From positions 2,912,001 to 2,976,000 of the forward strand of contig CM000208.1 of the NCBI GenBank assembly GCA_000002445.1: a DNA stretch of 64,000 nucleotides, read 5' to 3'. The notes below the pieces were generated by a model that saw nothing but the letters and a program-made list of their open reading frames with translations, was not told the origin of the DNA and made no database searches. Positions within the stretch are counted from its first letter, which is position 1, and each line of letters opens with the position of its first letter. The translations under genes were made by a program, and so were the position numbers. The stretch is from Trypanosoma brucei. Its lineage: Eukaryota. Shown piece by piece: positions 40,480 to 54,321 of this stretch.

Positions 40480-43400
40480 TCAGAAGAAAAGAGCGGGCCT
40501 CTCCACCAAGGTCGAGTTTGTGCGTGCAAATTTGCTACGTGCCGGTGCATCACGCTGCTTATTCAGTGAAAAGGTCCGTCGCCGCACATAACCATTCTGG
40601 TTGTTGCTACTGCTTCGGGAATCCCAACGCATCCCTGCAGCAGCATCAACCGACACTGAAGACCTCGACCGCAACAATCCTTTGGGTGCGTCACGCTGCG
40701 GGCGCTGGGAATGTCCTCTCTTTAACGAAGTTTGAAGGGATGTAGCGCGTATCAATTGGGAAGTGGTGATGGGCTGTCCAACCTGACACCGCAGCAACTC
40801 AGGATTCCGTTTCATTGCCTTCCGCCTGACAAGGTCGCTATGGTGCTTGTGGGCTGTTACGGTTGCCGTTACGTGCTGTCGCCGCCGTTCCGCGAGTCCG
40901 AGTCGGCGTGACACCTCATCGGTCGTACGCTGCTTCACCGCCAGTTGGTGCTGAAGCACAGCTAATTTCATGTCCCGTTCCCGAGACTCGTGCTGGTGGC
41001 GGTTTTTCAGTACGTGTTTATTAGCCTCCTGAATGCGTATTTCCTCTTTTGCCTTATTCAGTTTAGCAGTCAGCTCCGCCACTTCACGCTGAGAATTGCA
41101 ATATTCTTCGTTCAACTTTTCCCACTCAATCTGCACTTCACGCAGTTGCCTCTCAGATGTGCGTTGCTTCATATTGTGCTCCTCAATGTATGTGTAGAGG
41201 TGAGCAATTTGTCCTTCCATCTGTTCCCGTTCATCCATATAATCCTGGTCAAGTGCAACGAGGCTCTTGTATTCGTTCTCTCGGTGTAGCAATCGCTCTT
41301 GCAAGAGCCGGTTCTCACACTCCAAGTCCTCAATCCGATAGTCGCGCTCTCTACTGCAAAGGATTTCATCTTCTAGTTGCTTCTTCAGGGTTCGCACCTG
41401 GCTGCGCAACTGCACATTCTCGTGGCCCTGGTGTAGCGATGCGGATCCAGAGTTTTCCACTACGTCACCACCATACCCCACTGACATGAAGCGTGCCTTC
41501 TGTTGTGGAGTTAGCAGAATCCATATACTACGAAATGCCTCGTCTTTTTTCTGCATCTCCTGAAGTAAGGCGCAGTGCTCCTTGTTGCCTCGTTCAAGTT
41601 CCTCCTCTGTACTCGTCAAACGACTTTGCAGTACATCACAGAGATTTCTCTGATCCTCAAAGGCAGTTGTCAATCGTTCACATTCTTCAGCGCGCTCACC
41701 AGACGCCTTGAACCACGCAACTGTCTCTTCACGAATAACACGTTCAGTATATTCATGAAGAAGTTTAAGGTTGAGCTCTTCCAATTGGTCCGTTAATCCC
41801 GTGTTTTCGTTCGTCACCCTCTCTAACCGTTGCCGAAGTTCCTCGCAGCTTTTTTCCGTCTGCACAATATGTTTTCTTGCCTCCAGGAGCTCTGCCATAG
41901 TACGCTTCTGCTCACTGCGCATCGCTTCCACGGTCTTCGCCATTACCTGCTTTTGCTCGCTCATGCTATCAAACTGTTCTTGCATCCACCGAAAAGTGTC
42001 CGTTACCTTATGAAGCAACTCACTAGTTCCTACCTCCAATACGGCCTCTTCAAGAGTTTGTTGCGCTTCATCGCACTGCCGTACTCGTTGCTCCAGTTCC
42101 TGCCGAAGCTCCTCGGCTACGTCCCCACGCGACTCCAGTGAACAGAGATCCCGTTCGCGTTCACGCAAGACACTCTGGAAAATAGCACACTGGCGCTCTA
42201 GAGCCACCACATGGTCCCGAATCACTGGATCTTCGGCGCTGTTGGCGCCAGATGCATTGGCTAGTGAGTTTTCCGTGTTCGTTGCCGCATCACCATTTAC
42301 CTTCTGGGGTTGTTCAGGTTCCTTTCCTTCATGATCCATACCATCGTTTGAATTGGGAGCATGCTTCTCCCTTCGTGTTAGGGATGAAAGTTGCTTTTCA
42401 ATGTTCACCTCTTCTTGAAGTGTGGCGACACGGTGGCGCAAAGTTTCAATTTCCCGCGTAAGATTTCCATAAGCTTCCTCAAAACTACACCCATTCCTCA
42501 TAAGCAAATCTCTTACTCTTTCTTTTGTCTTTGTTAGAACGCACCGTTTTGCCGTTGTAGCAAAGTCAAGCGAACTCTTTGTTTCCGCAGCACTGCGTTT
42601 GTCGAGTGACACAGTCGCGATAAGAAGAAGATAACAGTCAGCGAGAGTCGATGCAAGGTAAAGCGTGAGCATCGACTCTCGGACTGGAAGTACATCCGCC
42701 TCCTCGGCCGTAGCCCTAATTACGGAGTGCAGAACTGAAAGTGACTTGTTTATGGCAATAGCTTCCCCTAGTTCGTCACCCACCACTCCTGTTCGCTTTA
42801 CACGCTCCGACCCTGCCAAATCACCCAAAGTTAAGCGACTCGTAAACACTGGAATACCGCCAACACACTTTGTTACATGTAGGGAAAGCAGTACATGCGA
42901 CCGGGAACTGCGTGCGTTTAACGCGTGGTGACTGACAAAACGCTTTCTCTGCGCTTCAGCGATGCGTGCAATTGCAAGAGTTGCATTCTGCACGAGGTAA
43001 CGGGGCTCGGGAACCGCGGTGCCCAAAGGTTTTTGGAGCAGCATACCGTGTTCTGATTTCCCTCTCCCCAGCAAGTTGTAGGCATTGTTGGTGTATATTT
43101 GTATATACCACAATTCTATAATGTCGTTCTCAGCGTCAAGGTTGTCAAACAAAGCATTGATAAAGGCGGGTGCCAAAACGTTAATTGTGTGCGTCTTCCC
43201 GCTCCCCGTTTGCCCGTAGCAGAGGACACAAGCATTGAAGCCAGCCCTCAGCTGCTCAACTATACCCGGAACTATCGACTCACATATTTCGCTATCACTC
43301 ACTGACGGGCCAAAGACACGACCAAACTCATACGTACGTTGCACCTCTTTTGCCCCATCGGCAGTTGGTGTTATGACTGTAAGCATGTTCCCCTCTTCGG

Positions 43401-43887
43401 TTCCGGCGATGGGTGCGAAACAGGGTACCGGCCGAGTTGCGCCCCTTCCGGTCACCACAGGCCCGCCGTTAATATTGGAACTACTAGAAAGGCTCATGTT
43501 TGAGAGACTACCCCTCTCATCGCCCTGTCCGCCACCACCAATATTTGCTGCCTCTTCGGCACTTTTGGCACATTGGTTGGCACTGCCGAGACGGGCACTT
43601 TCTCGCCGACAACCTGTCCGTGGTGTTGTTGCTAACGTTCCAGTTTCAATAACGTACCTCAGGAGATTGCTATTGTCACTAGAAGGTTTTACACGGACTG
43701 CAACCCTCACAGCATCCTGGCTACTCTGCGACCCCCGCGGTGTCCGCTCAACCTTTCCACGGCAGCGGACAGGCGTACTCCCCTCCCGTTTCACTGTTGA
43801 CTGAGTTGTCACCGGTGTCGTCGCACCGATTTGAGGTATACCCGCCAGTACCTGAGCTGAGGATGAAGAAGACATCATCTGCCTCAC
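40480..43887 (-). CDS. Kinesin with a motor domain in the N-terminal third (after an extension of about 50 aa) and a long coiled-coil stalk
   Basis: GQTGSGKTHTI, SSRSHVLLSL, LGDLAGSERV. The C-terminal half is heptad-rich (EEL/QQL repeats). 1135 aa. Confidence 0.9.
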   Translation of the reverse strand: MRQMMSSSSSAQVLAGIPQIGATTPVTTQSTVKREGSTPVRCRGKVERTPRGSQSSQDAVRVAVRVKPSSDNSNLLRYVIETGTLATTPRTGCRRESARLGSANQCAKSAEEAANIGGGGQGDERGSLSNMSLSSSSNINGGPVVTGRGATRPVPCFAPIAGTEEGNMLTVITPTADGAKEVQRTYEFGRVFGPSVSDSEICESIVPGIVEQLRAGFNACVLCYGQTGSGKTHTINVLAPAFINALFDNLDAENDIIELWYIQIYTNNAYNLLGRGKSEHGMLLQKPLGTAVPEPRYLVQNATLAIARIAEAQRKRFVSHHALNARSSRSHVLLSLHVTKCVGGIPVFTSRLTLGDLAGSERVKRTGVVGDELGEAIAINKSLSVLHSVIRATAEEADVLPVRESMLTLYLASTLADCYLLLIATVSLDKRSAAETKSSLDFATTAKRCVLTKTKERVRDLLMRNGCSFEEAYGNLTREIETLRHRVATLQEEVNIEKQLSSLTRREKHAPNSNDGMDHEGKEPEQPQKVNGDAATNTENSLANASGANSAEDPVIRDHVVALERQCAIFQSVLRERERDLCSLESRGDVAEELRQELEQRVRQCDEAQQTLEEAVLEVGTSELLHKVTDTFRWMQEQFDSMSEQKQVMAKTVEAMRSEQKRTMAELLEARKHIVQTEKSCEELRQRLERVTNENTGLTDQLEELNLKLLHEYTERVIREETVAWFKASGERAEECERLTTAFEDQRNLCDVLQSRLTSTEEELERGNKEHCALLQEMQKKDEAFRSIWILLTPQQKARFMSVGYGGDVVENSGSASLHQGHENVQLRSQVRTLKKQLEDEILCSRERDYRIEDLECENRLLQERLLHRENEYKSLVALDQDYMDEREQMEGQIAHLYTYIEEHNMKQRTSERQLREVQIEWEKLNEEYCNSQREVAELTAKLNKAKEEIRIQEANKHVLKNRHQHESRERDMKLAVLQHQLAVKQRTTDEVSRRLGLAERRRQHVTATVTAHKHHSDLVRRKAMKRNPELLRCQVGQPITTSQLIRATSLQTSLKRGHSQRPQRDAPKGLLRSRSSVSVDAAAGMRWDSRSSSNNQNGYVRRRTFSLNKQRDAPARSKFARTNSTLVERPALFF

Positions 43888-44336: not shown

Positions 44337-44655
44337 CCGTCGCCTCAACTTCACCACGTACGACATTCGACCCCATCTTCGGCATGTGATCCGTTCCCAT
44401 CGTCACAGGAAGTGACTCACCGGTCAGTGCTGCTTCGTCAACGTCAATCACACCTTCGTTAATCGTGCAGTCAGCGGGAACGGCGGAACCAGACCCAAGC
44501 TTCACAAGGTCACCGGGAACCAGTAATGCGGCGTCTATCTGCTGCCAGGTACCGTCACGGTAAGCGGTCGCAATAGGTTTCAAAGAGTTCTTCAGTGCAG
44601 CGACCGCATCACCAGCTTTTATCGTCTCATACCACCCAATGAGAGCGTTAGCGAG
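44337..44655 (-). pseudogene. 319-bp relic of a P-type H+-ATPase gene (codons about 119-224 of the intact copies), flanked by unrelated sequence
   Basis: About 99% nucleotide identity to 53224-53541 and 49512-49830. The homology ends abruptly at both sides. It carries MGTDHMPK where both intact copies have MGTEHMPK. Confidence 0.85.
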
Positions 44656-46631
44656 TAATGTTAGAACACCGAACCACCATGTTCTGGCTATTTTTTTGTA
44701 CTACTAATACTCCTTTCCACCCCTTTGTTCGTGTGTGTGGAGGGAGTATTAAAACCAGAGCACGAACACTGCGTGCACTGCAGAGAACATATGTGGAAAT
44801 TCAAATATTAACTGTGACGAGATTGAACATTTGGTGCGGTTCCTTCTTGACATAACCGCGTATCAGAAGGAACACGTTAGGGAATTTCCTAACCGACCAT
44901 AGTTTTTCGCCACATGCACACGTGGCTTATTCCTTTGCTACCTCCTTCATGCGGCAATTGCCGCCGCGCACCGTAACGGTAAACCCAGTGTATGACCTCT
45001 CAAGAAATACAATGGTATGCATTTTCGCAGGATGACAAAAGAAGAGGACCTATATCATCTTTGTCCCTTCGCAATTTGCTCCGCTCCCCTTGAAAAAAAA
45101 AAAATCACATGACCGTACCGCCAAGAAACTTTCACCGCGAGAAGAAAAAAGAGAAGAATAAAATGAGCTTCGAGGGTCAGAAGCAGTTTGAAGGTAACAG
45201 GTGAGCGTAGCGAAAGGAACAACGGCCTAAATAGAGTGATATTCTCCCACAATAACCTTTTCCTCTTCGCTTATTTGGCGTTCCCTTACTGATAGCACTT
45301 TTACCGGTAAACAAACTACCACGCATGCGACCGACCACAGGTTTTGAAAAAAAAAAGCTTTAGATTTTATTTAACAATCTCATTTTCCCCTCTGACTACG
45401 TCCGCACGGAAAAAAAATCAGAAAATAATTTAAGAGAAAGGTACAAAAAAATAAAGGAAAAACGTGCCAACACATTGCCCTCGTTTCTACTGGTTTTGTT
45501 TTATTTGATACCTTCGATACTGCGCCCCAAAACGACGGAAACCGCGAGTCAGTTCAGTAAAAGATTTGTGCACGATCCAAGGTTTGTAAGATTTCTTTTT
45601 CATCCTTTACCGTTTCTTTGGGAAGGATGGATGGAAATGCGACCGTCATCTCCCTTTTTTCTGTCTCCACGCGCTCCCGCTCAAATTTCCCTTTACTCCT
45701 CCTCTTTTTTCTTCGAAAGGGTGGGGCATTCGCATACGCGTACGTGCAGAAATACACTTACGGATATTTGCAATAATGTGCAAAGGGAGATGATCGGCAC
45801 GTTAAAGGAGAAAACGAAAAATATTGCATCACAACCGAATTACTCCCGCGGCGCCACTCGCCCCTTTTTTTTCTCCCAAGTACCCAATACCACAAACCAC
45901 CCACTTTGAAAAGTTCCCCCCCTTTTTTTCCTTAGCCTCTGCTTTTTCCTAACCTCACTCCCCTGGCAATAATGTAGTTCCTCTTCTCCATTTCTCTTTC
46001 TCTCCCCATAAATGCCCGGGTTACACTGAGCACCAAAATATTTCACACAATGGTGCGGTGCTACTACGATGAAGCGAAGGAAAAAAAAAAGATGGATAAC
46101 CTCACAAATTTCACTCGTGTTTTCTTCTCAATTTCTCATTGATTGCATTCGTAAGCTTTCCCCCTTTTACATATATCTTAAAATCTTTTTACAATAAACA
46201 CTACTCGCTTCCCTCCTCTTTCCGCTATCATCAATGTAAGTACAACAAAATTACGCAAGCACCCAAGCTGTAAACGCGTGCTTCGTTCATAAGAAAATGA
46301 CGCTCTATCTTTTTTTTCCTTTACCTTTCATTACATTATCAATCTTTCGCAGTGTGTCAGTCCTATCGTTTGCCCTCCCACACACACACTTACACACACA
46401 CCATCATTACCAACTACTAAAAGTTCAAAACAAATAAACAATAACAACGATAATAAAGTCACCTCGTCATCTCTCCACTTTACGAGAGGGAATCATGACC
46501 GGTCCATCGAAATAATGCCGAGGCACATCGGAGGTTGCGAAATGGCCAGTTTTTTTCTCATTACACTTCGTCCCGTGTTTAGGAATTTTTTTAAACTGAA
46601 GGCTCTAATTACAGAGTCGACCGCGCGAGAA

Positions 46632-46670
46632 CCACCACCACCACCACTACCACCACCACCACCACCACCA
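46632..46670. repeat. (CCA)n trinucleotide microsatellite, about 13 units with one CTA interruption, followed by an A-rich tract
   Basis: Read directly from the sequence. Confidence 0.9.
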
Positions 46671-47444
46671 AAAAAACAAACAAACAAACAAAGCGTTTAC
46701 GATAAAAAAAAAAAAGAATTAAGGAAAAGATCTTTTATTTCTCAGCATACACTCATGCTACTGCTGAAGCGTGCGACTGGGGTGACAAAATTAGAGGTTT
46801 ACGCTGCCGCTAATGGACAGGAGAACATCAGGCAACTGTTGAAATGCATATGGATGAGAACAATACCACACGCATGCAGCTCGCTACGTCCACGGTTGCG
46901 AGGGGAAATTGAATTATAACGACGGAACAATACCAAAAAAATCCGCTTTCCCACAAGTTAATGCACTGAAACATCGCAAAAAAAAGATGCATGAAAAGAA
47001 TATCCTCTCCAACAACAATACCCCACCTCTAGAGTTACCGATCACAGCCATGTCGCACACATAAAATACTCACAATAAAGACCGTTATATGTCTTTTCAT
47101 TAAAGAAAAGAAAAAAAATTAATAAAGCCAACATATAAGGGAAATAATGAGGATGAGGCAACAACGGAAGCGCACTGTTCAACCCCACAACAGCTTCGTG
47201 ATTCCCCACCTTCACCCACCCACCTTCACGCTCATTCAAAGAAAAAAAACATACACAAAAACTTACTAAGCATCCCTGATTAAAATGAAGGCCAACAGAT
47301 ACCACATTTCTAACCCCAATTCGCGAAAAGGAAAATAACACACGCACGCGCCTCCATATTAGCACAAACCAAACGAGAAAAGCGCAGCTTTATAAAAAAA
47401 AATCAATGTGATTGTTCCGAAAGGAGAAAAAAAATATAATATTT

Positions 47445-50183
47445 TTAAATAGGTTCCTTAGACGACTTAGCATTATAAACAATTTCTTTCCCACCGCTTG
47501 CACGAGACACACAGCCAAATATGTCGAAGGCCTCCATTAGCATGTGAGTCAAAACCTTCACGACATCTTGGACGATCCACCACAAAATGCAATATATCCA
47601 AACCCAAAGTGGATACAATCTATCCGCAACAGTTTCACCTCGTGCAAGACCCTCGACAGGAACACCATCAGAACTTGATTTCTTCCAAACCGAGGCGGCG
47701 ATCGTCGAGATTACCAGTGAGATCACCGCACCGACCAGCAGTATAGTGCCCGGAGCCATCGAGAAAAAGAACCTTCCACCAGTACGTGAGGAGAATAGAG
47801 TCAAGAAGTCAGAAATCGATATCTTGAGGTACAGGAGAGTAACTATTTTGCCCTCCTTCAAGGAAGGAATGTTGAGTTTGCCAAACCAAGAGTTGGGGTA
47901 CCTTTTCTCATCATAAGCATCAAGAGCCATCCACAGCAGTAGTAGAGACGAGGCACAGGCAACAACAGACATAATTATAGCGCTTGTGAACACAACAGGA
48001 ATGTTCCAACGCTGCGGAAGCTTCGAGGGCACCACACGGTCATATCCAATGGTCATCAGGCACCCGTCGTTCAGGAGCGTGATCAGCATGAACATCATCA
48101 CTGGGAGGTAGAAAACCTGGAATTCGGGGTTCTCAATTCCATAGTCGTGAGGTGTCAACGAGAAGCAGGCGATAAAAAAGAAGCACACCAACTGCATTGT
48201 GGCGGAAATACGGTATGTTAGAAAAGACAACATACGTTGGAACACCTGGCGCGATACAAACATCGCATCAACAACAACACTCAAACCAGGGTCTGTCAGC
48301 ACCATGTCTGCCGCGGCACGAGCGGCGTCTGTCGCGCCCTGTACAGCAATACCGACGTCCGCACGTTTCAGGGCAGGCGCGTCGTTCACACCATCACCAG
48401 TCATCGCGCACGTGTACCCGCGCTGCCGAAGCGCCTCAACGATCAAAAACTTGTGCTCGGGGAAGACCTGTGCGAACCCGCCGACACTCAGCATCATGTC
48501 ACCGTACTTCTCGCCAAGGTCGCTGGGCATATCGTTGACATCCACCTTGGGAAGCTTCTCGGCGGTTAGGATGTTCGGATCAAGGTCCAGCATGCGGCAC
48601 ATTTCCTTCGCAATGAGCACATGGTCACCAGTGATCATCTTTACATCCACGCCATACTGCCTACTACGGCGAATTGTCTCCTTCGTGTCCGGGCGCGGGG
48701 GATCGAGGAACGTCAGGATTCCACAGAGATGCCAACGACCCGCGGAGTCTGTTTTCGCCACAGAGAGGCATCGGATACCGCGCGACGCCAATTTGTCAAT
48801 GATATCGACCACAGAGTCATTGATCTCATCTTGATTGTGCACCATCTCTATAATAACGTGTGGTGCGCCTTTCGTCACACTGAACTTCTCACCACTTCGC
48901 TTATCAACCAATGTAGCGGCCGTTCGTTTCGTCGTTGGATCAAATGGCACGAACTCAAGCTGCTCGTAGTTGTCGCACTCGTCCAGATCTGCAGCACCAA
49001 GTACCATCGTGTCCAGTGCATCACGGGGAGGCTCACGCCACTTTGCTGCAAGCGCGGAAAGTACAAGCAGTGAACGCAGATCGTGACCCTTCTCAAATGT
49101 GAAGCACTGTTCCTGAATCTCCATCTTGTTCAACGTCAGAGTACCGGTTTTGTCAGAGCAAAGCATGTTCACACCAGACATTGTCTCAATGGCTGTCAGT
49201 CTCGTCACAATGATTTTGTGCTTCGACAGCTTCTTTGAACCCACAGCGAGAGTGGTCGTCACAACAATCTCCAAAGCAATAGGAATGGATACCACAAGCA
49301 CTACAACAGCGAACTGCAAGGCATCACGGAACTTTTGCTTGAAATTTACCATCAGATAGATGAAGCAAATCAAGCAAAGTACGAACGAGAAACTCGACAA
49401 GATGACCATCACGCGCATGAGAATTATACGGATACTGCCAATGTCAGCCTCCACAGACTGAAGTAGCGTTGCCGTCTTGCCAAAAAAGGTGCTCTGACCT
49501 GTGTATTGCACCGTCGCATCAACTTCACCACGTACGACATTCGACCCCATCTTCGGCATGTGTTCCGTTCCCATCGTCACAGGAAGTGACTCACCGGTCA
49601 GTGCTGCTTCGTCAACGTCAATCACACCTTCGTTAATCGTGCAGTCAGCGGGAACGGCGGAACCAGACCCAAGCTTCACAAGGTCACCGGGAACCAGTAA
49701 TGCGGCGTCTATCTGCTGCCAGGTACCGTCACGGTAAGCGGTCGCAATAGGTTTCAAAGAGTTCTTCAGTGCAGCGACCGCATCACCAGCTTTTATCGTC
49801 TCATACCACCCAATGAGAGCGTTAGCGAGCTGAATGCCGAGCAGGACGGCACCATCAGCAAAGTGCTGTAACGCAAACTGGATTATTATGACAATCCACA
49901 AAACAATCGGCATAGGGCCCCATAGATTCCGCAAAAATATCAGCCAACTGGGTGTTTTCTTTTCCGGCAGCTCGTTACGACCGTATTTAAGCAACAACTC
50001 CTCTGCTTCCGCGGATGTCAATCCCTTCGAGGGCGGCACCAGTGGTACACTGCCATCATCACCCTCACGGTGCTCACTGATAGCCTTTGATAGCACAGAT
50101 TGGCGGCGTTGCGGTTTCTGTGGCTTGTGCACTTCACCGGCGTCGTTGGTTCCCGGAACACCCTTTGGTCCAGTATCCCCCAT
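47445..50183 (-). CDS. Plasma-membrane-type P3A H+-ATPase (proton pump), tandem copy A, 912 aa
   Basis: TGES (ALTGESLPV), DKTGTLT phosphorylation site, TGDGVNDAPAL and MITGDHV motifs, 10 TM segments. Matches trypanosomatid HA1/HA2/HA3 and Leishmania H1A/H1B. Confidence 0.95.
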   Translation of the reverse strand: MGDTGPKGVPGTNDAGEVHKPQKPQRRQSVLSKAISEHREGDDGSVPLVPPSKGLTSAEAEELLLKYGRNELPEKKTPSWLIFLRNLWGPMPIVLWIVIIIQFALQHFADGAVLLGIQLANALIGWYETIKAGDAVAALKNSLKPIATAYRDGTWQQIDAALLVPGDLVKLGSGSAVPADCTINEGVIDVDEAALTGESLPVTMGTEHMPKMGSNVVRGEVDATVQYTGQSTFFGKTATLLQSVEADIGSIRIILMRVMVILSSFSFVLCLICFIYLMVNFKQKFRDALQFAVVVLVVSIPIALEIVVTTTLAVGSKKLSKHKIIVTRLTAIETMSGVNMLCSDKTGTLTLNKMEIQEQCFTFEKGHDLRSLLVLSALAAKWREPPRDALDTMVLGAADLDECDNYEQLEFVPFDPTTKRTAATLVDKRSGEKFSVTKGAPHVIIEMVHNQDEINDSVVDIIDKLASRGIRCLSVAKTDSAGRWHLCGILTFLDPPRPDTKETIRRSRQYGVDVKMITGDHVLIAKEMCRMLDLDPNILTAEKLPKVDVNDMPSDLGEKYGDMMLSVGGFAQVFPEHKFLIVEALRQRGYTCAMTGDGVNDAPALKRADVGIAVQGATDAARAAADMVLTDPGLSVVVDAMFVSRQVFQRMLSFLTYRISATMQLVCFFFIACFSLTPHDYGIENPEFQVFYLPVMMFMLITLLNDGCLMTIGYDRVVPSKLPQRWNIPVVFTSAIIMSVVACASSLLLLWMALDAYDEKRYPNSWFGKLNIPSLKEGKIVTLLYLKISISDFLTLFSSRTGGRFFFSMAPGTILLVGAVISLVISTIAASVWKKSSSDGVPVEGLARGETVADRLYPLWVWIYCILWWIVQDVVKVLTHMLMEAFDIFGCVSRASGGKEIVYNAKSSKEPI

Positions 50184-50225
50184 TTGTATATTCCTTTGGC
50201 CTTTACTACCTTAGATGTTACAAGT

Positions 50226-50247
50226 CTTCGGGAAGGGAAGAAACGAG
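50226..50247 (-). promoter_or_regulatory. Polypyrimidine tract plus AG acceptor region (trans-splicing signal) immediately upstream of H+-ATPase copy A
   Basis: Minus-strand sequence ctcgtttcttcccttcccgaag is followed by AG dinucleotides within 40 nt of the ATG. The same block is conserved upstream of copy B. Confidence 0.4.
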
Positions 50248-51132
50248 TGCACAAGTCAGTGTTTCAGCAGTTGCACGACACCGGTTAATTCGCGACACGG
50301 AACGTCGAAAGAAAGGACGCAAAATCCCCCAGGATACGTTGTTGGGCCAAGTGACCTCAATGGTTATCAAAGGTATTAATGAACTATAGGTCCGGAAGTT
50401 GTTGGTAAACTCGACCCTCCCGCATTGAAAGTGTACATACAAGTAGCCACATGCACATTAGAGCTGCAATGAGCAACATCACAAAAACGCCTTTACACTC
50501 TCCATCCAATTCCCTTTCTTTTCAGTATTTTTCTTACTTTTGCTTGCAATTATTCTCTTATTAATGTTGGATACATTATTCGGTGTTGGTGGCACCAATA
50601 CCCTGCCCCCCCTTACTGCACTTTCCCATACTTTCCCCCCACCCATCATGCAAAGTTATACATCACTTATGCGATGTTGTTTACATTACCCCGTACACAT
50701 CCACTTCTTGTGTCCCTCCATCCCCCCACAGGCCATTCGTCGCGGGTTCTCCACCAAATGTCCCTGCTGCGTTGCGGGTCCCTCTGCACACACGCTGAGT
50801 TGTCGCACAGCATCCAATCACCCAACTCAAACAACCGGAGAAGAGGGAAGGTAAAGAGTTAAACGCTCTGCAGTACGCAACGCATCAAAAGCACATCTGA
50901 AATGAGAAACACATGGACGTGTAATTGACTGAATCCATGACACGGCCTATAAACTCGGTAAAGCATCCACTTTGCGTGCCACACAAGTGCAGCACGCGAA
51001 GTTCTTCCTTTCCCACTCCAGTCCGTTGCTACCGAGATCGCAGAGGAACATTCCACTCACAACGAGCAGGAAACAAACTAGGGCACGTCAGACGGAGGAA
51101 CATCATTGTCACGTCATGTTACTTTAGATTCA

Positions 51133-53895
51133 TTATAGCGTAGGTTCTTTAGGTGCACCACCCTCACCATCTTTACACACGCTGCCACACTCAACATCGG
51201 CCCCTCTCCCAGAACGCGACACACAGCCAAATATGTCGAAGGCCTCCATTAGCATGTGAGCAAGAACCTTCACGACATCTTGGACGATCCACCACAAAAT
51301 GCAATATATCCAAACCCAAAGCGGCAACAGCTTCGCTGCGGTATCTCCTCCAACCGCAAGACCCTCCGTCGGCACACCATCAGAACTTGATTTCTTCCAA
51401 ACCGAGGCGGCGATCGTCGAGATTACCAGTGAGATCACCGCACCGACCAGCAGTATAGTGCCCGGAGCCATCGAGAAAAAGAACCTTCCACCAGTACGTG
51501 AGGAGAATAGAGTCAAGAAGTCAGAAATCGATATCTTGAGGTACAGGAGAGTAACTATTTTGCCCTCCTTCAAGGAAGGAATGTTGAGTTTGCCAAACCA
51601 AGAGTTGGGGTACCTTTTCTCATCATAAGCATCAAGAGCCATCCACAGCAGTAGTAGAGACGAGGCACAGGCAACAACAGACATAATTATAGCGCTTGTG
51701 AACACAACAGGAATGTTCCAACGCTGCGGAAGCTTCGAGGGCACCACACGGTCATATCCAATGGTCATCAGGCACCCGTCGTTCAGGAGCGTGATCAGCA
51801 TGAACATCATCACTGGGAGGTAGAAAACCTGGAATTTGGGGTCCTCAATTCCATAGTCGTGAGGTGTCAACGAGAAGCAGGCGATAAAAAAGAAGCACAC
51901 CAACTGCAGCGTGGCGGAAATACGGTATGTTAGAAAAGACAACATACGTTGGAACACCTGGCGCGATACAAACATCGCATCAACAACAACACTCAAACCA
52001 GGGTCTGTCAGCACCATGTCTGCCGCGGCACGAGCGGCGTCTGTCGCGCCGTGTACAGCAATACCGACGTCCGCACGTTTCAGGGCAGGCGCGTCGTTCA
52101 CACCATCACCAGTCATCGCGCACGTGTACCCGCGCTGCCGAAGCGCCTCAACGATCAAAAACTTGTGCTCGGGGAAGACCTGTGCGAACCCGCCGACACT
52201 CAGCATCATGTCACCGTACTTCTCGCCAAGGTCGCTGGGCATATTATTGACATCCACCTTGGGAAGCTTCTCAACGGTTAGGATGTTCGGATCAAGGTCC
52301 AGCATGCGGCACATTTCCTTCGCAATGAGCACATGGTCACCAGTGATCATCTTTACATCCACGCCATACTGCCTACTACGGCGAATTGTCTCCTTCGTGT
52401 CCGGGCGCGGGGGATCGAGGAACGTCAGGATTCCACAGAGATGCCAACGACCCGCGGAGTCTGTTTTCGCCACAGAGAGGCATCGGATACCGCGCGACGC
52501 CAATTTGTCAATGATATCGACCACAGAGTCATTGATCTCATCTTGATTGTACACCATTTGTAGTATCACGTGTGGTGCGCCTTTCGTCACACTGAACTTC
52601 TCACCACTTCGCTTATCAACCAATGTAGCGGCCGTTCGTTTCGTCGTTGGATCAAATGGCACGAACTCAAGCTGCTCGTAGTTGTCGCACTCGTCCAGAT
52701 CTGCAGCACCAAGTACCATCGTGTCCAGTGCATCACGGGGAGGCTCACGCCACTTTGCTGCAAGCGCGGAAAGTACAAGCAGTGAACGCAGATCGTGACC
52801 CTTCTCAAATGTGAAGCACTGTTCCTGAATCTCCATCTTGTTCAACGTCAGAGTACCGGTTTTGTCAGAGCAAAGCATGTTCACACCAGACATTGTCTCA
52901 ATGGCTGTCAGTCTCGTCACAATGATTTTGTGCTTCGACAGCTTCTTTGAACCCACAGCGAGAGTGGTCGTCACAACAATCTCCAAAGCAATAGGAATGG
53001 ATACCACAAGCACTACAACAGCGAACTGCAAGGCATCACGGAACTTTTGCTTGAAATTTACCATCAGATAGATGAAGCAAGCCAAGCAAAGTACGAACGA
53101 GAAACTCGACAAGATGACCATCACGCGCATGAGAATTATACGGATACTGCCAATGTCAGCCTCCACAGACTGAAGTAGCGTTGCCGTCTTGCCAAAAAAG
53201 GTGCTCTGACCTGTGTATTGCACCGTCGCCTCAACTTCACCACGTACGACATTCGACCCCATCTTCGGCATGTGTTCCGTTCCCATCGTCACAGGAAGTG
53301 ACTCACCGGTCAGTGCTGCTTCGTCAACGTCAATCACACCTTCGTTAATCGTGCAGTCAGCGGGAACGGCGGAACCAGACCCAAGCTTCACAAGGTCACC
53401 GGGAACCAGTAATGCGGCGTCTATCTGCTGCCAGGTACCGTCACGGTAAGCGGTCGCAATAGGTTTCAAAGAGTTCTTCAGTGCAGCGACCGCATCACCA
53501 GCTTTTATCGTCTCATACCACCCAATGAGAGCGTTAGCGAGCTGAATGCCGAGCAGGACGGCACCATCAGCAAAGTGCTGTAACGCAAACTGGATTATTA
53601 TGACAATCCACAAAACAATCGGCATAGGGCCCCATAGATTCCGCAAAAATATCAGCCAACTGGGTGTTTTCTTTTCCGGCAGCTCGTTACGACCGTATTT
53701 AAGCAACAACTCCTCTGCTTCCGCGGATGTCAATCCCTTCGAGGGCGGAAGCAGCGGTACACTGCCATCATCACCCTCACGGTGCTCACTGATAGCCTTT
53801 GATAGCACAGATTGGCGGCGTTGCGGTTTCTGTGGCTTGTGCACTTCACCGGCGTCGTTGGTTCCCGGAACACCCTTTGGTCCAGTATCCCCCAT
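51133..53895 (-). CDS. Plasma-membrane-type P3A H+-ATPase (proton pump), tandem copy B, 920 aa, with a different C-terminal tail
   Basis: Same motifs as copy A and near-identical over about the first 860 codons. The last 60 codons diverge (..GSVCKDGEGGAPKEPTL versus ..KEIVYNAKSSKEPI). Confidence 0.95.
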   Translation of the reverse strand: MGDTGPKGVPGTNDAGEVHKPQKPQRRQSVLSKAISEHREGDDGSVPLLPPSKGLTSAEAEELLLKYGRNELPEKKTPSWLIFLRNLWGPMPIVLWIVIIIQFALQHFADGAVLLGIQLANALIGWYETIKAGDAVAALKNSLKPIATAYRDGTWQQIDAALLVPGDLVKLGSGSAVPADCTINEGVIDVDEAALTGESLPVTMGTEHMPKMGSNVVRGEVEATVQYTGQSTFFGKTATLLQSVEADIGSIRIILMRVMVILSSFSFVLCLACFIYLMVNFKQKFRDALQFAVVVLVVSIPIALEIVVTTTLAVGSKKLSKHKIIVTRLTAIETMSGVNMLCSDKTGTLTLNKMEIQEQCFTFEKGHDLRSLLVLSALAAKWREPPRDALDTMVLGAADLDECDNYEQLEFVPFDPTTKRTAATLVDKRSGEKFSVTKGAPHVILQMVYNQDEINDSVVDIIDKLASRGIRCLSVAKTDSAGRWHLCGILTFLDPPRPDTKETIRRSRQYGVDVKMITGDHVLIAKEMCRMLDLDPNILTVEKLPKVDVNNMPSDLGEKYGDMMLSVGGFAQVFPEHKFLIVEALRQRGYTCAMTGDGVNDAPALKRADVGIAVHGATDAARAAADMVLTDPGLSVVVDAMFVSRQVFQRMLSFLTYRISATLQLVCFFFIACFSLTPHDYGIEDPKFQVFYLPVMMFMLITLLNDGCLMTIGYDRVVPSKLPQRWNIPVVFTSAIIMSVVACASSLLLLWMALDAYDEKRYPNSWFGKLNIPSLKEGKIVTLLYLKISISDFLTLFSSRTGGRFFFSMAPGTILLVGAVISLVISTIAASVWKKSSSDGVPTEGLAVGGDTAAKLLPLWVWIYCILWWIVQDVVKVLAHMLMEAFDIFGCVSRSGRGADVECGSVCKDGEGGAPKEPTL

Positions 53896-53937
53896 TTGTA
53901 TATTCCTTTGACCTTTACTACCTTAGATGTTACAAGT

Positions 53938-53959
53938 CTTCGGGAAGGGAAGAAACGAG
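53938..53959 (-). promoter_or_regulatory. Conserved polypyrimidine tract and splice-acceptor region upstream of H+-ATPase copy B
   Basis: Identical to the copy A block. 5' flank homology between the copies extends about 100 nt upstream of the ATG and then breaks. Confidence 0.4.
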
Positions 53960-54033
53960 TGCACAAGTCAGTGTTTCAGCAGTTGCACGACACCGGTGGA
54001 TTTGCATCATCTGATCTGAATCTCTTTGTTTCT

Positions 54034-54187
54034 ATACCACCCAATGAGAGCGTTAGGGAGCTGAATGCCGAGCAGGACGGCACCATCAGCAAAGTGCTGT
54101 AACGCAAACTGGATTATTATGACAATCCACATAACAATCGGCATAGGGCGCCATAGATTCCGCAAAAATATCAGCCAACTGGGTGTT
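54034..54187 (-). pseudogene. 154-bp relic of H+-ATPase (codons about 75-126) located just upstream of copy B's 5' flank
   Basis: 4 mismatches in 154 bp against 53516-53669. It is followed directly by a (GTT)7T9 microsatellite and is in sense orientation relative to the intact genes. Confidence 0.8.
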
Positions 54188-54214
54188 GTTGTTGTTGTTG
54201 TTGTTTTTTTTTTT
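54185..54214. repeat. (GTT)7 followed by T9
   Basis: Read directly. It abuts the right-hand ATPase relic. Confidence 0.9.
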
Positions 54215-54321
54215 GCGGAAGCTTGTTGAGTTGTTATTTGAGTATCGTCGCAGTTCTCTTTTGTTTTATTACCATTTTTGTTATTTTGACGGGGTTTTTT
54301 TTGCTGCTTTTACTGTGATTT

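What the first reader, a model, noticed from the sequence alone, without database searches (positions are those of the whole stretch)
54034..54187. Second ATPase relic upstream of the array breaks at the same 27-nt site as the downstream relic, and the two relics cover complementary gene segments
The right relic (codons about 75-126) begins its homology exactly at ataccacccaatgagagcgttagggag. The left relic (codons about 119-224) ends its homology exactly after ataccacccaatgagagcgttagcgag. The two relics therefore overlap only by this 27-nt block, and together they would reconstitute a contiguous stretch covering codons 75-224. The intact A-B array (about 9.4 kb) sits between them. This geometry looks like a single ancestral gene copy split at that site, or a recombination or break hotspot that was used twice. 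It is not what independent random deletions would be expected to produce. The right relic is fused to a (GTT)7T9 microsatellite.
Basis: seen in the sequence. Interest (0 to 1): 0.6.

Follow-up and report, generated by a model that had tools for sequence, protein, structure and literature searches.

The report
Split proton-pump gene fragments flanking array
Two short, non-coding leftovers of the Trypanosoma brucei proton-pump gene sit on either side of the two working copies and meet at the same 27-base site. They are debris of an old rearrangement, but the upstream one also supplies the first 112 residues of the published "third" pump gene, TbHA2.

Summary
The window is T. b. brucei TREU927 chromosome 10. 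TbHA3 (51133-53895) and TbHA1 (47445-50183) lie on the minus strand.

- **The fragments.** A 154-nt fragment (54034-54187; third base of codon 76 to codon 127) lies 5' of the pair. A 319-nt fragment (44337-44655; codon 119 to first base of codon 225) lies 3' of it. They overlap by exactly 27 nt, codons 119-127 in frame. There is no residual homology outside any of the four junctions.
- **Conservation.** The same junctions occur in T. b. gambiense DAL972, T. equiperdum OVI and the gap-free IVM-t1 chromosome assembly. T. vivax and T. cruzi have no fragments.
- **Age.** The fragments share polymorphisms with the intact genes, so gene conversion keeps them similar and identity does not date them.
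- **TbHA2 (new here).** Published TbHA2 (905 aa) is the A-rich flank plus this right fragment, fused to the TbHA3 body. It carries both amino-acid changes private to the fragment.
- **Origin (inferred).** I favour one break in a gene copy at codons 119-127, with a whole gene unit placed between the ends and later trimming, over two independent events. This cannot be proven here. No hairpin or hotspot evidence was found.

Modest interest.

The parts
54034..54187 (-). Right (5'-side) H+-ATPase gene fragment, third base of codon 76 to codon 127. This is the feature in the finding.
   Evidence: 98.05% identical to HA3 53515-53668 and HA1 49803-49956. tblastn places it at aa 77-127. Translation carries G89R, L95M and A120P relative to HA1/HA3.
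54034..54060 (-). 27-nt shared block (codons 119-127) as it appears in the right fragment; it has one private change (A120P).
54006..54033 (-). 28-nt A-rich spacer between the right fragment and the conserved HA3 upstream region. The fragment's reading frame ends here (…IGWY RNKEIQIR*).
53896..54005 (-). 110-nt upstream region shared by HA3 and HA1 (96%). It contains a polypyrimidine tract and an AG that I read as the likely splice-acceptor region; this is inference.
51133..53895 (-). TbHA3 (Tb927.10.12510-type, 920 aa), intact.
53515..53541 (-). 27-nt block inside TbHA3.
47445..50183 (-). TbHA1 (912 aa), intact.
49803..49829 (-). 27-nt block inside TbHA1.
44656..47444 (-). 2789-nt non-coding stretch between the TbHA1 stop codon and the left fragment. 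It has no homology to the ATPase gene or to the HA3 3' flank.
44337..44655 (-). Left (3'-side) H+-ATPase gene fragment, codon 119 to first base of codon 225.
   Evidence: 99.4% and 99.7% identical to HA1 and HA3. tblastn places it at aa 119-224.
44629..44655 (-). 27-nt block at the gene-5' end of the left fragment.
54185..54214 (+). (GTT)7T9 microsatellite, which reads A9(AAC)7 on the gene strand. It encodes the KKKTTTTTTT of TbHA2 and shares 4 nt (AACA) with the gene at the junction.
54188..54368 (-). A-rich flank whose translation matches TbHA2 residues 1-61. It is interrupted by a frameshift in this strain. Its ATG (54366-54368) lies inside the 3' end of the preceding 850-aa coding sequence.

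Best explanation
**What it is (shown).** The feature is one of two truncated, sense-oriented, non-coding fragments of the P-type H+-ATPase gene. They bracket the TbHA3-TbHA1 pair on T. brucei chromosome 10.

**How it arose (inferred).** One ATPase gene copy was broken once, at codons 119-127. A complete gene unit, from 138 nt upstream of the start codon to 2.8 kb downstream of the stop codon, came to lie between the two ends. Both ends kept the 27 nt.

This is what a staggered break would leave. It is also what replication would leave if it left the template at codon 127, copied a whole unit, and re-entered at codon 119. The interrupted copy was junk, so later deletions trimmed it to codons 76-127 on the 5' side and 119-225 on the 3' side. 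The 5' deletion used AACA microhomology at an (AAC)n tract.

**What has happened since (shown).** Gene conversion with the live genes has kept both fragments 98-100% identical to them.

**TbHA2 (composition shown, mechanism inferred).** Published TbHA2 has exactly the sequence expected from a homologous crossover between the right fragment and TbHA3 that removes 519 nt: intergenic flank plus fragment, fused to the TbHA3 body.

The confidence given (0.45) is for the single-break origin. That these are real, conserved, non-coding gene fragments kept similar by conversion, and that TbHA2 has this composition, I hold at above 0.9.
For: - **Geometry.** The overlap is exactly 27 nt. The 5' piece is on the 5' side, the 3' piece on the 3' side, both in sense orientation.
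- **Sharp junctions.** There is no residual homology outside any of the four junctions.
- **Conservation.** Identical junction flanks occur in DAL972, OVI and IVM-t1. IVM-t1 is one gap-free stretch colinear with the window over 20.6 kb.
- **Lineage-specific.** T. vivax (single gene) and T. cruzi (three regular copies) are syntenic and have no fragments. So the event happened in the brucei lineage at a locus that already held the gene.
- **Gene conversion.**
  - The block's C>T variant is in the IVM-t1 genes and the IVM-t1 left fragment, but not in the DAL972 left fragment.
  - The E222D site varies among left fragments with the same two bases that segregate in the genes.
  - The OVI gene copy next to the right fragment carries the fragment's G89R and L95M.
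  - The intact copies themselves are mosaics.
- **TbHA2.**
  - Residues 1-112 map colinearly to 54368-54034.
  - Residues 62-905 equal HA3 residues 77-920 except for G89R and L95M, the two changes private to the fragment.
- **Literature.** T. brucei repairs breaks by homologous recombination and microhomology-mediated joining, with no classical end joining reported (PMC3045614).
Against: - The single-break origin is inference from geometry only. No intermediate was found, such as longer halves covering codons 1-127 or codon 119 to the stop.
- The model needs three events: one insertion or template switch plus two trimming deletions.
- Microhomology can be seen only at the outer 5' junction (4 nt), and the three other junctions cannot be tested because the ancestral partners are gone.
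- Two weak hints favour simple insertion of copied patches into intact intergenic DNA:
  - The A-rich composition runs straight across from the (AAC)n flank into the 28-nt spacer.
  - The intergenic region without the fragment would be 272 nt, close to the 229 nt in T. cruzi.
- TbHA2 could be a PCR or cloning chimera rather than a real allele. Its reading frame through the flank is closed in all four assemblies, and its ATG lies inside the preceding gene.
Confidence: 0.45

Rival explanations
1. Two independent events. Each fragment is a short stretch copied from the gene and pasted into a broken intergenic region (templated 'filler' during microhomology-mediated repair), or the remnant of a separate tandem duplication (519 nt and 5174 nt). 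That both end in the same 27 nt is chance or local fragility.
For: - The repeat spacings of 519 and 5174 nt are what two nested tandem duplications would give.
- There is AACA microhomology at the (AAC)n junction.
- The A-rich composition is continuous across the flank and the 28-nt spacer.
- One-sided microhomology-mediated gene conversion is documented in T. brucei (PMC3045614).
- A patch model needs only two events.
Against: - It needs a coincidence of about 1-2% in breakpoint position. For patches it also needs both in sense orientation, with the 5' piece upstream and the 3' piece downstream.
- The 27-nt block shows no significant structure that would make it fragile (z -0.03; with 30-nt flanks, z -1.3 to -1.6).
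- No fragments or breakpoints occur at this site in the T. vivax or T. cruzi arrays.
Confidence: 0.35
2. The fragments are the decayed outer members of a once longer regular array (four or more copies). Each outer copy was reduced by two unrelated deletions.
For: - Copy number at this locus varies: one in the DAL972 assembly, two in TREU927 and IVM-t1, three genes reported in Lister 427, three to four in T. cruzi.
- The review notes gene fragments at such loci in other species (PMC6884021).
Against: - It needs four independent deletions plus the 27-nt coincidence.
- The region between the preceding gene and TbHA3 is only 426 nt, and no trace of other parts of a copy remains.
- The sequences next to the inner junctions do not resemble the HA3-HA1 intergenic region.
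Confidence: 0.1
3. Assembly artefact: the fragments are mis-joined reads from the repeated genes.
For: Repeats do disturb assemblies here. The OVI scaffold runs from the left fragment into gene sequence and then has a 10-N gap. The DAL972 copy number may be collapsed (PMC2854126).
Against: The same four junctions occur in four independent assemblies, including one gap-free chromosome-level assembly. The fragments carry private, strain-specific variants.
Confidence: 0.02

Closest known systems
TbHA2 (GenBank AAM55480 / UniProt Q7Z1X2; Luo, Fang & Docampo 2006, as cited in PMC6884021)
   Same: Residues 1-112 are encoded colinearly by window 54368-54034, which is the A-rich flank, the A9(AAC)7 tract and the right fragment. 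It carries the fragment's private G89R and L95M changes.
   Different: - TbHA2 runs on without interruption into a TbHA3-identical body. In TREU927, DAL972, OVI and IVM-t1 the fragment instead stops at codon 127 and is followed by 28 nt and the normal TbHA3 5' end.
- The flank's reading frame is closed in all four assemblies.
- TbHA2 lacks A120P.
Partial copies and pseudogenes at trypanosomatid P-type ATPase arrays, and concerted evolution of T. brucei tandem arrays (PMC6884021; Jackson 2007, PMC1855330; PMC2854126)
   Same: Gene fragments lie next to a tandem pair. The copies are mosaics and share polymorphisms, as expected from gene conversion. Copy number differs between strains.
   Different: I found no description of these two T. 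brucei fragments or of their complementary 27-nt overlap in the papers read.
Target-site duplication left by an insertion
   Same: A short direct repeat (27 nt) flanks a 9.4-kb insert that interrupts a coding sequence.
   Different: - 27 nt is longer than the roughly 12-nt duplications I recall for ingi/RIME elements (from memory, not tested).
- The 'insert' is the host's own gene unit.
- There is no poly(A) tail at its 3' end and no other repeat in the window.
Microhomology-mediated repair and one-sided MMEJ gene conversion in T. brucei (Glover, Jun & Horn, PMC3045614)
   Same: Illegitimate junctions next to homologous tracts, and a short microhomology (AACA) at one junction.
   Different: The typical microhomologies reported are 5-20 bp. 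Only 4 nt is visible here, at one junction, and the others cannot be scored.

Membership tests
Fragment (pseudogene piece) of the P3A plasma-membrane H+-ATPase gene family TbHA1/TbHA3 | Nucleotide and protein homology to a defined part of the gene | tested here: met
   154 nt at 98% identity, aa 77-127; 319 nt at 99.4-99.7% identity, aa 119-224.
Fragment (pseudogene piece) of the P3A plasma-membrane H+-ATPase gene family TbHA1/TbHA3 | Cannot encode a pump: both ends of the gene are missing and homology ends abruptly | tested here: met
   No homology beyond the four junctions. The right fragment's frame stops 8 codons after codon 127.
Concerted evolution by gene conversion with the intact copies | The same polymorphic bases segregate in fragments and genes, in different combinations among strains | tested here: met
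   Four sites: left-fragment positions 15 and 312, and right-fragment positions 38 and 56. There are few sites, and the OVI evidence comes from the end of a fragmented, gap-containing assembly.
Transposon or retroposon insertion with target-site duplication | Mobile-element sequence, a poly(A) tail or terminal repeats inside the duplicated site | tested here: not met
   The insert is HA3, HA1 and their flanks. No poly(A) lies next to the left fragment, and the window has no other repeat.
MMEJ junctions | Microhomology of about 5-20 bp at the junction (PMC3045614) | tested here: inconclusive
   4 nt (AACA) at the outer 5' junction. The other junctions cannot be scored without the ancestral partner sequences.
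Structure-prone break hotspot | Hairpin or other stable structure at the shared site, or reuse of the site in other arrays | tested here: not met
   DNA folding z-scores of -0.03 (27 nt) and -1.3 to -1.6 (87-147 nt). No fragments in T. vivax or T. cruzi.
Single template-switch or staggered-break event (split gene copy) | An intermediate or outgroup showing the two halves as longer pieces of one copy | not testable with these tools
   T. congolense DNA and further T. brucei long-read assemblies were not retrievable.

The most novel reading that the evidence does not exclude
The flanking fragments may be working recombination substrates rather than debris. Crossover or conversion between them and the live genes would repeatedly create pump variants with altered N-terminal regions. 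Candidates are a TbHA2-type allele in Lister 427 and the G89R/L95M TbHA3 in T. equiperdum OVI. The 27-nt direct repeats could also let the whole array loop out and back. That would be a small-scale version of mosaic gene formation, applied to a housekeeping transporter.
Probability: 0.07. Interest if true: 0.6.

Novelty: new member of a known kind. Interest (0 to 1): 0.33.

Why it matters
- **TbHA2.** The right fragment explains an oddity in the literature. TbHA2 was characterised as a third T. brucei proton pump with a unique N-terminus. Its sequence equals intergenic DNA plus this fragment joined to TbHA3. So it is either a recombinant allele of TbHA3 or a cloning chimera, not an independent third gene. 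This affects how the RNAi and localisation work on 'three' pumps is read.
- **Repair footprint.** The locus is a clean, datable-by-comparison example of how illegitimate breaks and gene conversion shape trypanosome tandem arrays. The 27-nt overlap is a possible footprint of the repair mechanism.
- **Function.** It has no evident functional role of its own.

Tried and rejected
- **Exact-protein look-ups** for HA1, HA3 and the kinesin found no contig. Cluster members and neighbouring genes gave the loci instead.
- **OVI left side.** The scaffold seemed to show a longer left fragment, but a 10-N gap follows it, so I treat it as unresolved.
- **More strains.** A search with the TbHA2 N-terminus returned only an IVM-t1 gene model. 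A Logan contig ended 17 nt after the preceding gene. T. congolense proteins have no contig on record.
- **Primary paper.** Luo et al. 2006 is not held, so how TbHA2 was cloned is unknown to me.
- **Structure and RNA.** A hairpin or other structure at the 27-nt block is not significant. Rfam found nothing in the window.
- **Rejected models.**
  - Retroposition of a gene unit, because there is no poly(A).
  - Campbell-type integration of a circle by homologous crossover: it would give in-register fusions, not the observed junctions, and no junction between the 2.8-kb stretch and the 28-nt spacer exists anywhere.
  - Old diverged copies with a conversion patch, because there is no residual similarity.

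Full report
**Where we are.** The window is Trypanosoma brucei brucei TREU927 chromosome 10. The 912-aa ORF at 47445-50183 (minus strand) is XP_823455, 100% identical in BLASTP to Q86DE0 (TbHA1). The 920-aa ORF at 51133-53895 (minus) is XP_823456 (TbHA3). The neighbours are a kinesin (40483-43878, minus) and an 850-aa protein (54325-56874, minus). The two pump genes are 98.1% identical from 110 nt upstream of the ATG to about codon 855 (47502-50293 against 51214-54005). They differ completely in C-terminal tail and 3' flank.

**Checking the observation.**
- The 27-mer occurs at 44629, 49803, 53515 and 54034, with none expected by chance.
- The left fragment, 44337-44655, matches HA1 49511-49829 and HA3 53223-53541 at 99.4% and 99.7%.
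- The right fragment, 54034-54187, matches HA1 49803-49956 and HA3 53515-53668 at 98.05%.
- The window contains no other repeat.
- In gene coordinates the two fragments overlap by exactly 27 nt. These are codons 119-127 (LANALIGWY), in frame.
- The right fragment runs from the third base of codon 76 to codon 127. The left runs from codon 119 to the first base of codon 225.
Word-7 blastn finds nothing beyond any junction. Semi-global alignment of the 150 nt outside each of the four junctions to the matching gene segment scores no better than shuffles (z from -1.0 to +0.4).
- The (GTT)7T9 tract is at 54185-54214, and its first unit belongs to the homology. So the junction carries 4 nt of microhomology, AACA on the gene strand.

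**Other genomes.**
- A 20.6-kb gap-free stretch of the T. b. equiperdum IVM-t1 chromosome (L006) is colinear with window 63616-43048. It has the order: right fragment, two genes, 2.8 kb, left fragment.
- T. b. gambiense DAL972 (L003) has both fragments around a single gene. That gene is TbHA3-like at its 5' end and TbHA1-like from between coding nt 148 and 665 onward. It is either an unequal-crossover product or a collapsed assembly. The genome paper itself warns about copy number in arrays (PMC2854126).
- T. equiperdum OVI has the right fragment and its junctions on one contig (L001). The left junctions are on another (L002). There the sequence runs from the left fragment into gene sequence and then meets a 10-N gap, so that stretch is unresolved.
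- The 20 nt flanking each junction are the same in DAL972 and IVM-t1, apart from one C/T difference at the base next to the outer left junction. In OVI the two right-fragment junctions and the inner left junction match in the same comparison; the outer left junction lies after the 10-N gap and was read directly.
- T. vivax (single gene) and T. cruzi (three regular copies, unit 3861 nt) are syntenic, with the order Fer2, DnaJ, 850-aa homologue, ATPase; in T. vivax the kinesin follows, while the T. cruzi locus ends before it. Neither has ATPase fragments in its flanks.
- The fragments therefore arose in the brucei lineage, at a locus that already held the gene. T. congolense DNA could not be retrieved.

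**The fragments are not evolving alone.** Four variable sites are shared between fragments and genes in strain-specific combinations.
- The C>T change inside the 27-nt block is in the DAL972 and IVM-t1 genes and in the IVM-t1 left fragment. It is not in the DAL972 left fragment or in any right fragment.
- The E222D site is G in the TREU927 and IVM-t1 left fragments and T in the DAL972 one. The same two bases segregate in the genes.
- G89R and L95M, private to the right fragment in TREU927, are also in the OVI gene copy next to it.

This is the pattern of gene conversion already described for T. brucei arrays (PMC1855330). So the 98-100% identity of the fragments says nothing about their age.

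**An unexpected link: TbHA2.** The published TbHA2 protein is 905 aa (AAM55480/Q7Z1X2) and comes from a Lister 427 29-13 cell line. The review lists it as a third pump at this locus (PMC6884021).
- It begins MTYGLPRNHSLEKK…QQASAKKKTTTTTTTPSWLIF.
- tblastn maps residues 1-24 to window 54368-54297 and residues 23-112 to 54303-54034. That is the A-rich flank, the A9(AAC)7 tract (KKKTTTTTTT) and the right fragment, ending exactly at the fragment's last base.
- Residues 62-905 equal TbHA3 residues 77-920 except for G89R and L95M, the two coding changes private to the right fragment.
- TbHA2 is therefore the flank plus fragment fused in register to the TbHA3 body. This is the product expected from a homologous crossover between 54034-54187 and 53515-53668, which removes 519 nt.
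- Whether the crossover happened in the parasite, giving an allele of TbHA3, or during PCR or cloning cannot be decided here.
- In all four assemblies the flank's frame is closed: A-run lengths differ, and DAL972 and IVM-t1 have a stop codon. The proposed ATG lies inside the preceding coding sequence, 45 nt before its stop. So the 'unique N-terminus' is translated intergenic DNA.
- The primary paper is not held.

**How the geometry arose (inference).** All four junctions are illegitimate, and in-register homologous events cannot make them. According to PMC3045614, T. brucei repairs breaks by homologous recombination and microhomology-mediated joining, and no classical end joining has been reported.

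- **Preferred model.** One gene copy was broken in codons 119-127. A whole unit (28 nt, 110-nt upstream region, gene(s), 2789 nt) came to lie between the ends, and both ends kept the 27 nt. A staggered break would do this. So would a replication template switch that re-entered 27 nt behind its exit. The interrupted copy was then trimmed by two deletions. This reading requires, and so accounts for, the orientation, the 5'/3' order and the overlap.
- **Main rival.** Two independent events: templated patches, or nested tandem duplications of 519 and 5174 nt. It needs a positional coincidence of about 1-2%. For patches it also needs the right orientation and order. It does need fewer events. It is weakly favoured by the A-rich composition running from the (AAC)n flank into the 28-nt spacer, and by an intergenic length without the fragment (272 nt) close to the 229 nt of T. 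cruzi.
- **Hotspot.** The 27-nt block has no significant DNA structure (z -0.03; with 30-nt flanks, z -1.3 to -1.6). No other array shows breaks there. A structural hotspot is therefore unsupported.
- **Rejected.** Retroposition, because there is no poly(A). Campbell-type circle integration, because it gives the wrong junctions. Old diverged copies with conversion patches, because there is no residual similarity.

**Verdict.**
- The fragments have no evident function. Rfam finds nothing in the window, and both fragments lie in sense orientation in intergenic DNA.
- The useful by-product is that TbHA2 is a fragment-TbHA3 fusion.
- This is a new example of a known kind of thing: partial copies at the edges of a concertedly evolving trypanosome array. 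It is of modest general interest.

Noticed in passing
window 54034-54368 (minus strand): Published TbHA2 (Q7Z1X2) residues 1-112 are encoded here, by intergenic flank plus the right fragment. The rest of TbHA2 is identical to TbHA3. Its proposed ATG (54366-54368) lies inside the 3' end of the preceding 850-aa coding sequence (stop codon at 54322-54324).
   Followed up: yes
L003 10001-12739 (T. b. gambiense DAL972): The single pump gene is a hybrid: TbHA3-like upstream region and first ~147 nt of coding sequence, TbHA1-like from at most nt 666 onward. It is either an unequal-crossover product or a collapsed assembly.
   Followed up: partly
L002 3026-5171 (T. equiperdum OVI scaffold CZPT02000209): After the inner left-fragment junction the sequence continues 2.1 kb into gene sequence. 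It stops at a 10-N gap exactly where HA1 and HA3 diverge, then resumes inside the left fragment. This is probably mis-threading through the 319-nt repeat, but a longer truncated copy is not excluded.
   Followed up: partly
L001 12254-12407 (T. equiperdum OVI): The gene copy next to the right fragment carries G89R and L95M, which are private to the fragment in TREU927. This suggests conversion from fragment to gene, though it lies at the very end of a contig in a fragmented, gap-containing assembly.
   Followed up: partly
window 47502-50293 vs 51214-54005: Homology between TbHA1 and TbHA3 has razor-sharp ends: 110 nt upstream of the ATG and near codon 855. The C-terminal tails and 3' flanks are unrelated. 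This pattern is compatible with long-term conversion confined to a fixed tract.
   Followed up: partly
window 44656-47444: The 2.8-kb stretch downstream of TbHA1 is AT-rich and low in complexity: (ACC)13 at 46631-46670, (CAAA)6, (CA)11 and many A/T runs. By the transcript sizes in the review's table (3.56 kb), it is far longer than the 3' UTR. DAL972 annotates a 113-aa hypothetical gene on the opposite strand here (L003 14189-14530).
   Followed up: no
L006 (T. b. equiperdum IVM-t1): The alignment to the window has 98 gap positions over 20.6 kb. The pump genes are annotated only as a 186-aa piece (P0129), probably because of frameshifts introduced by sequencing errors.
   Followed up: no
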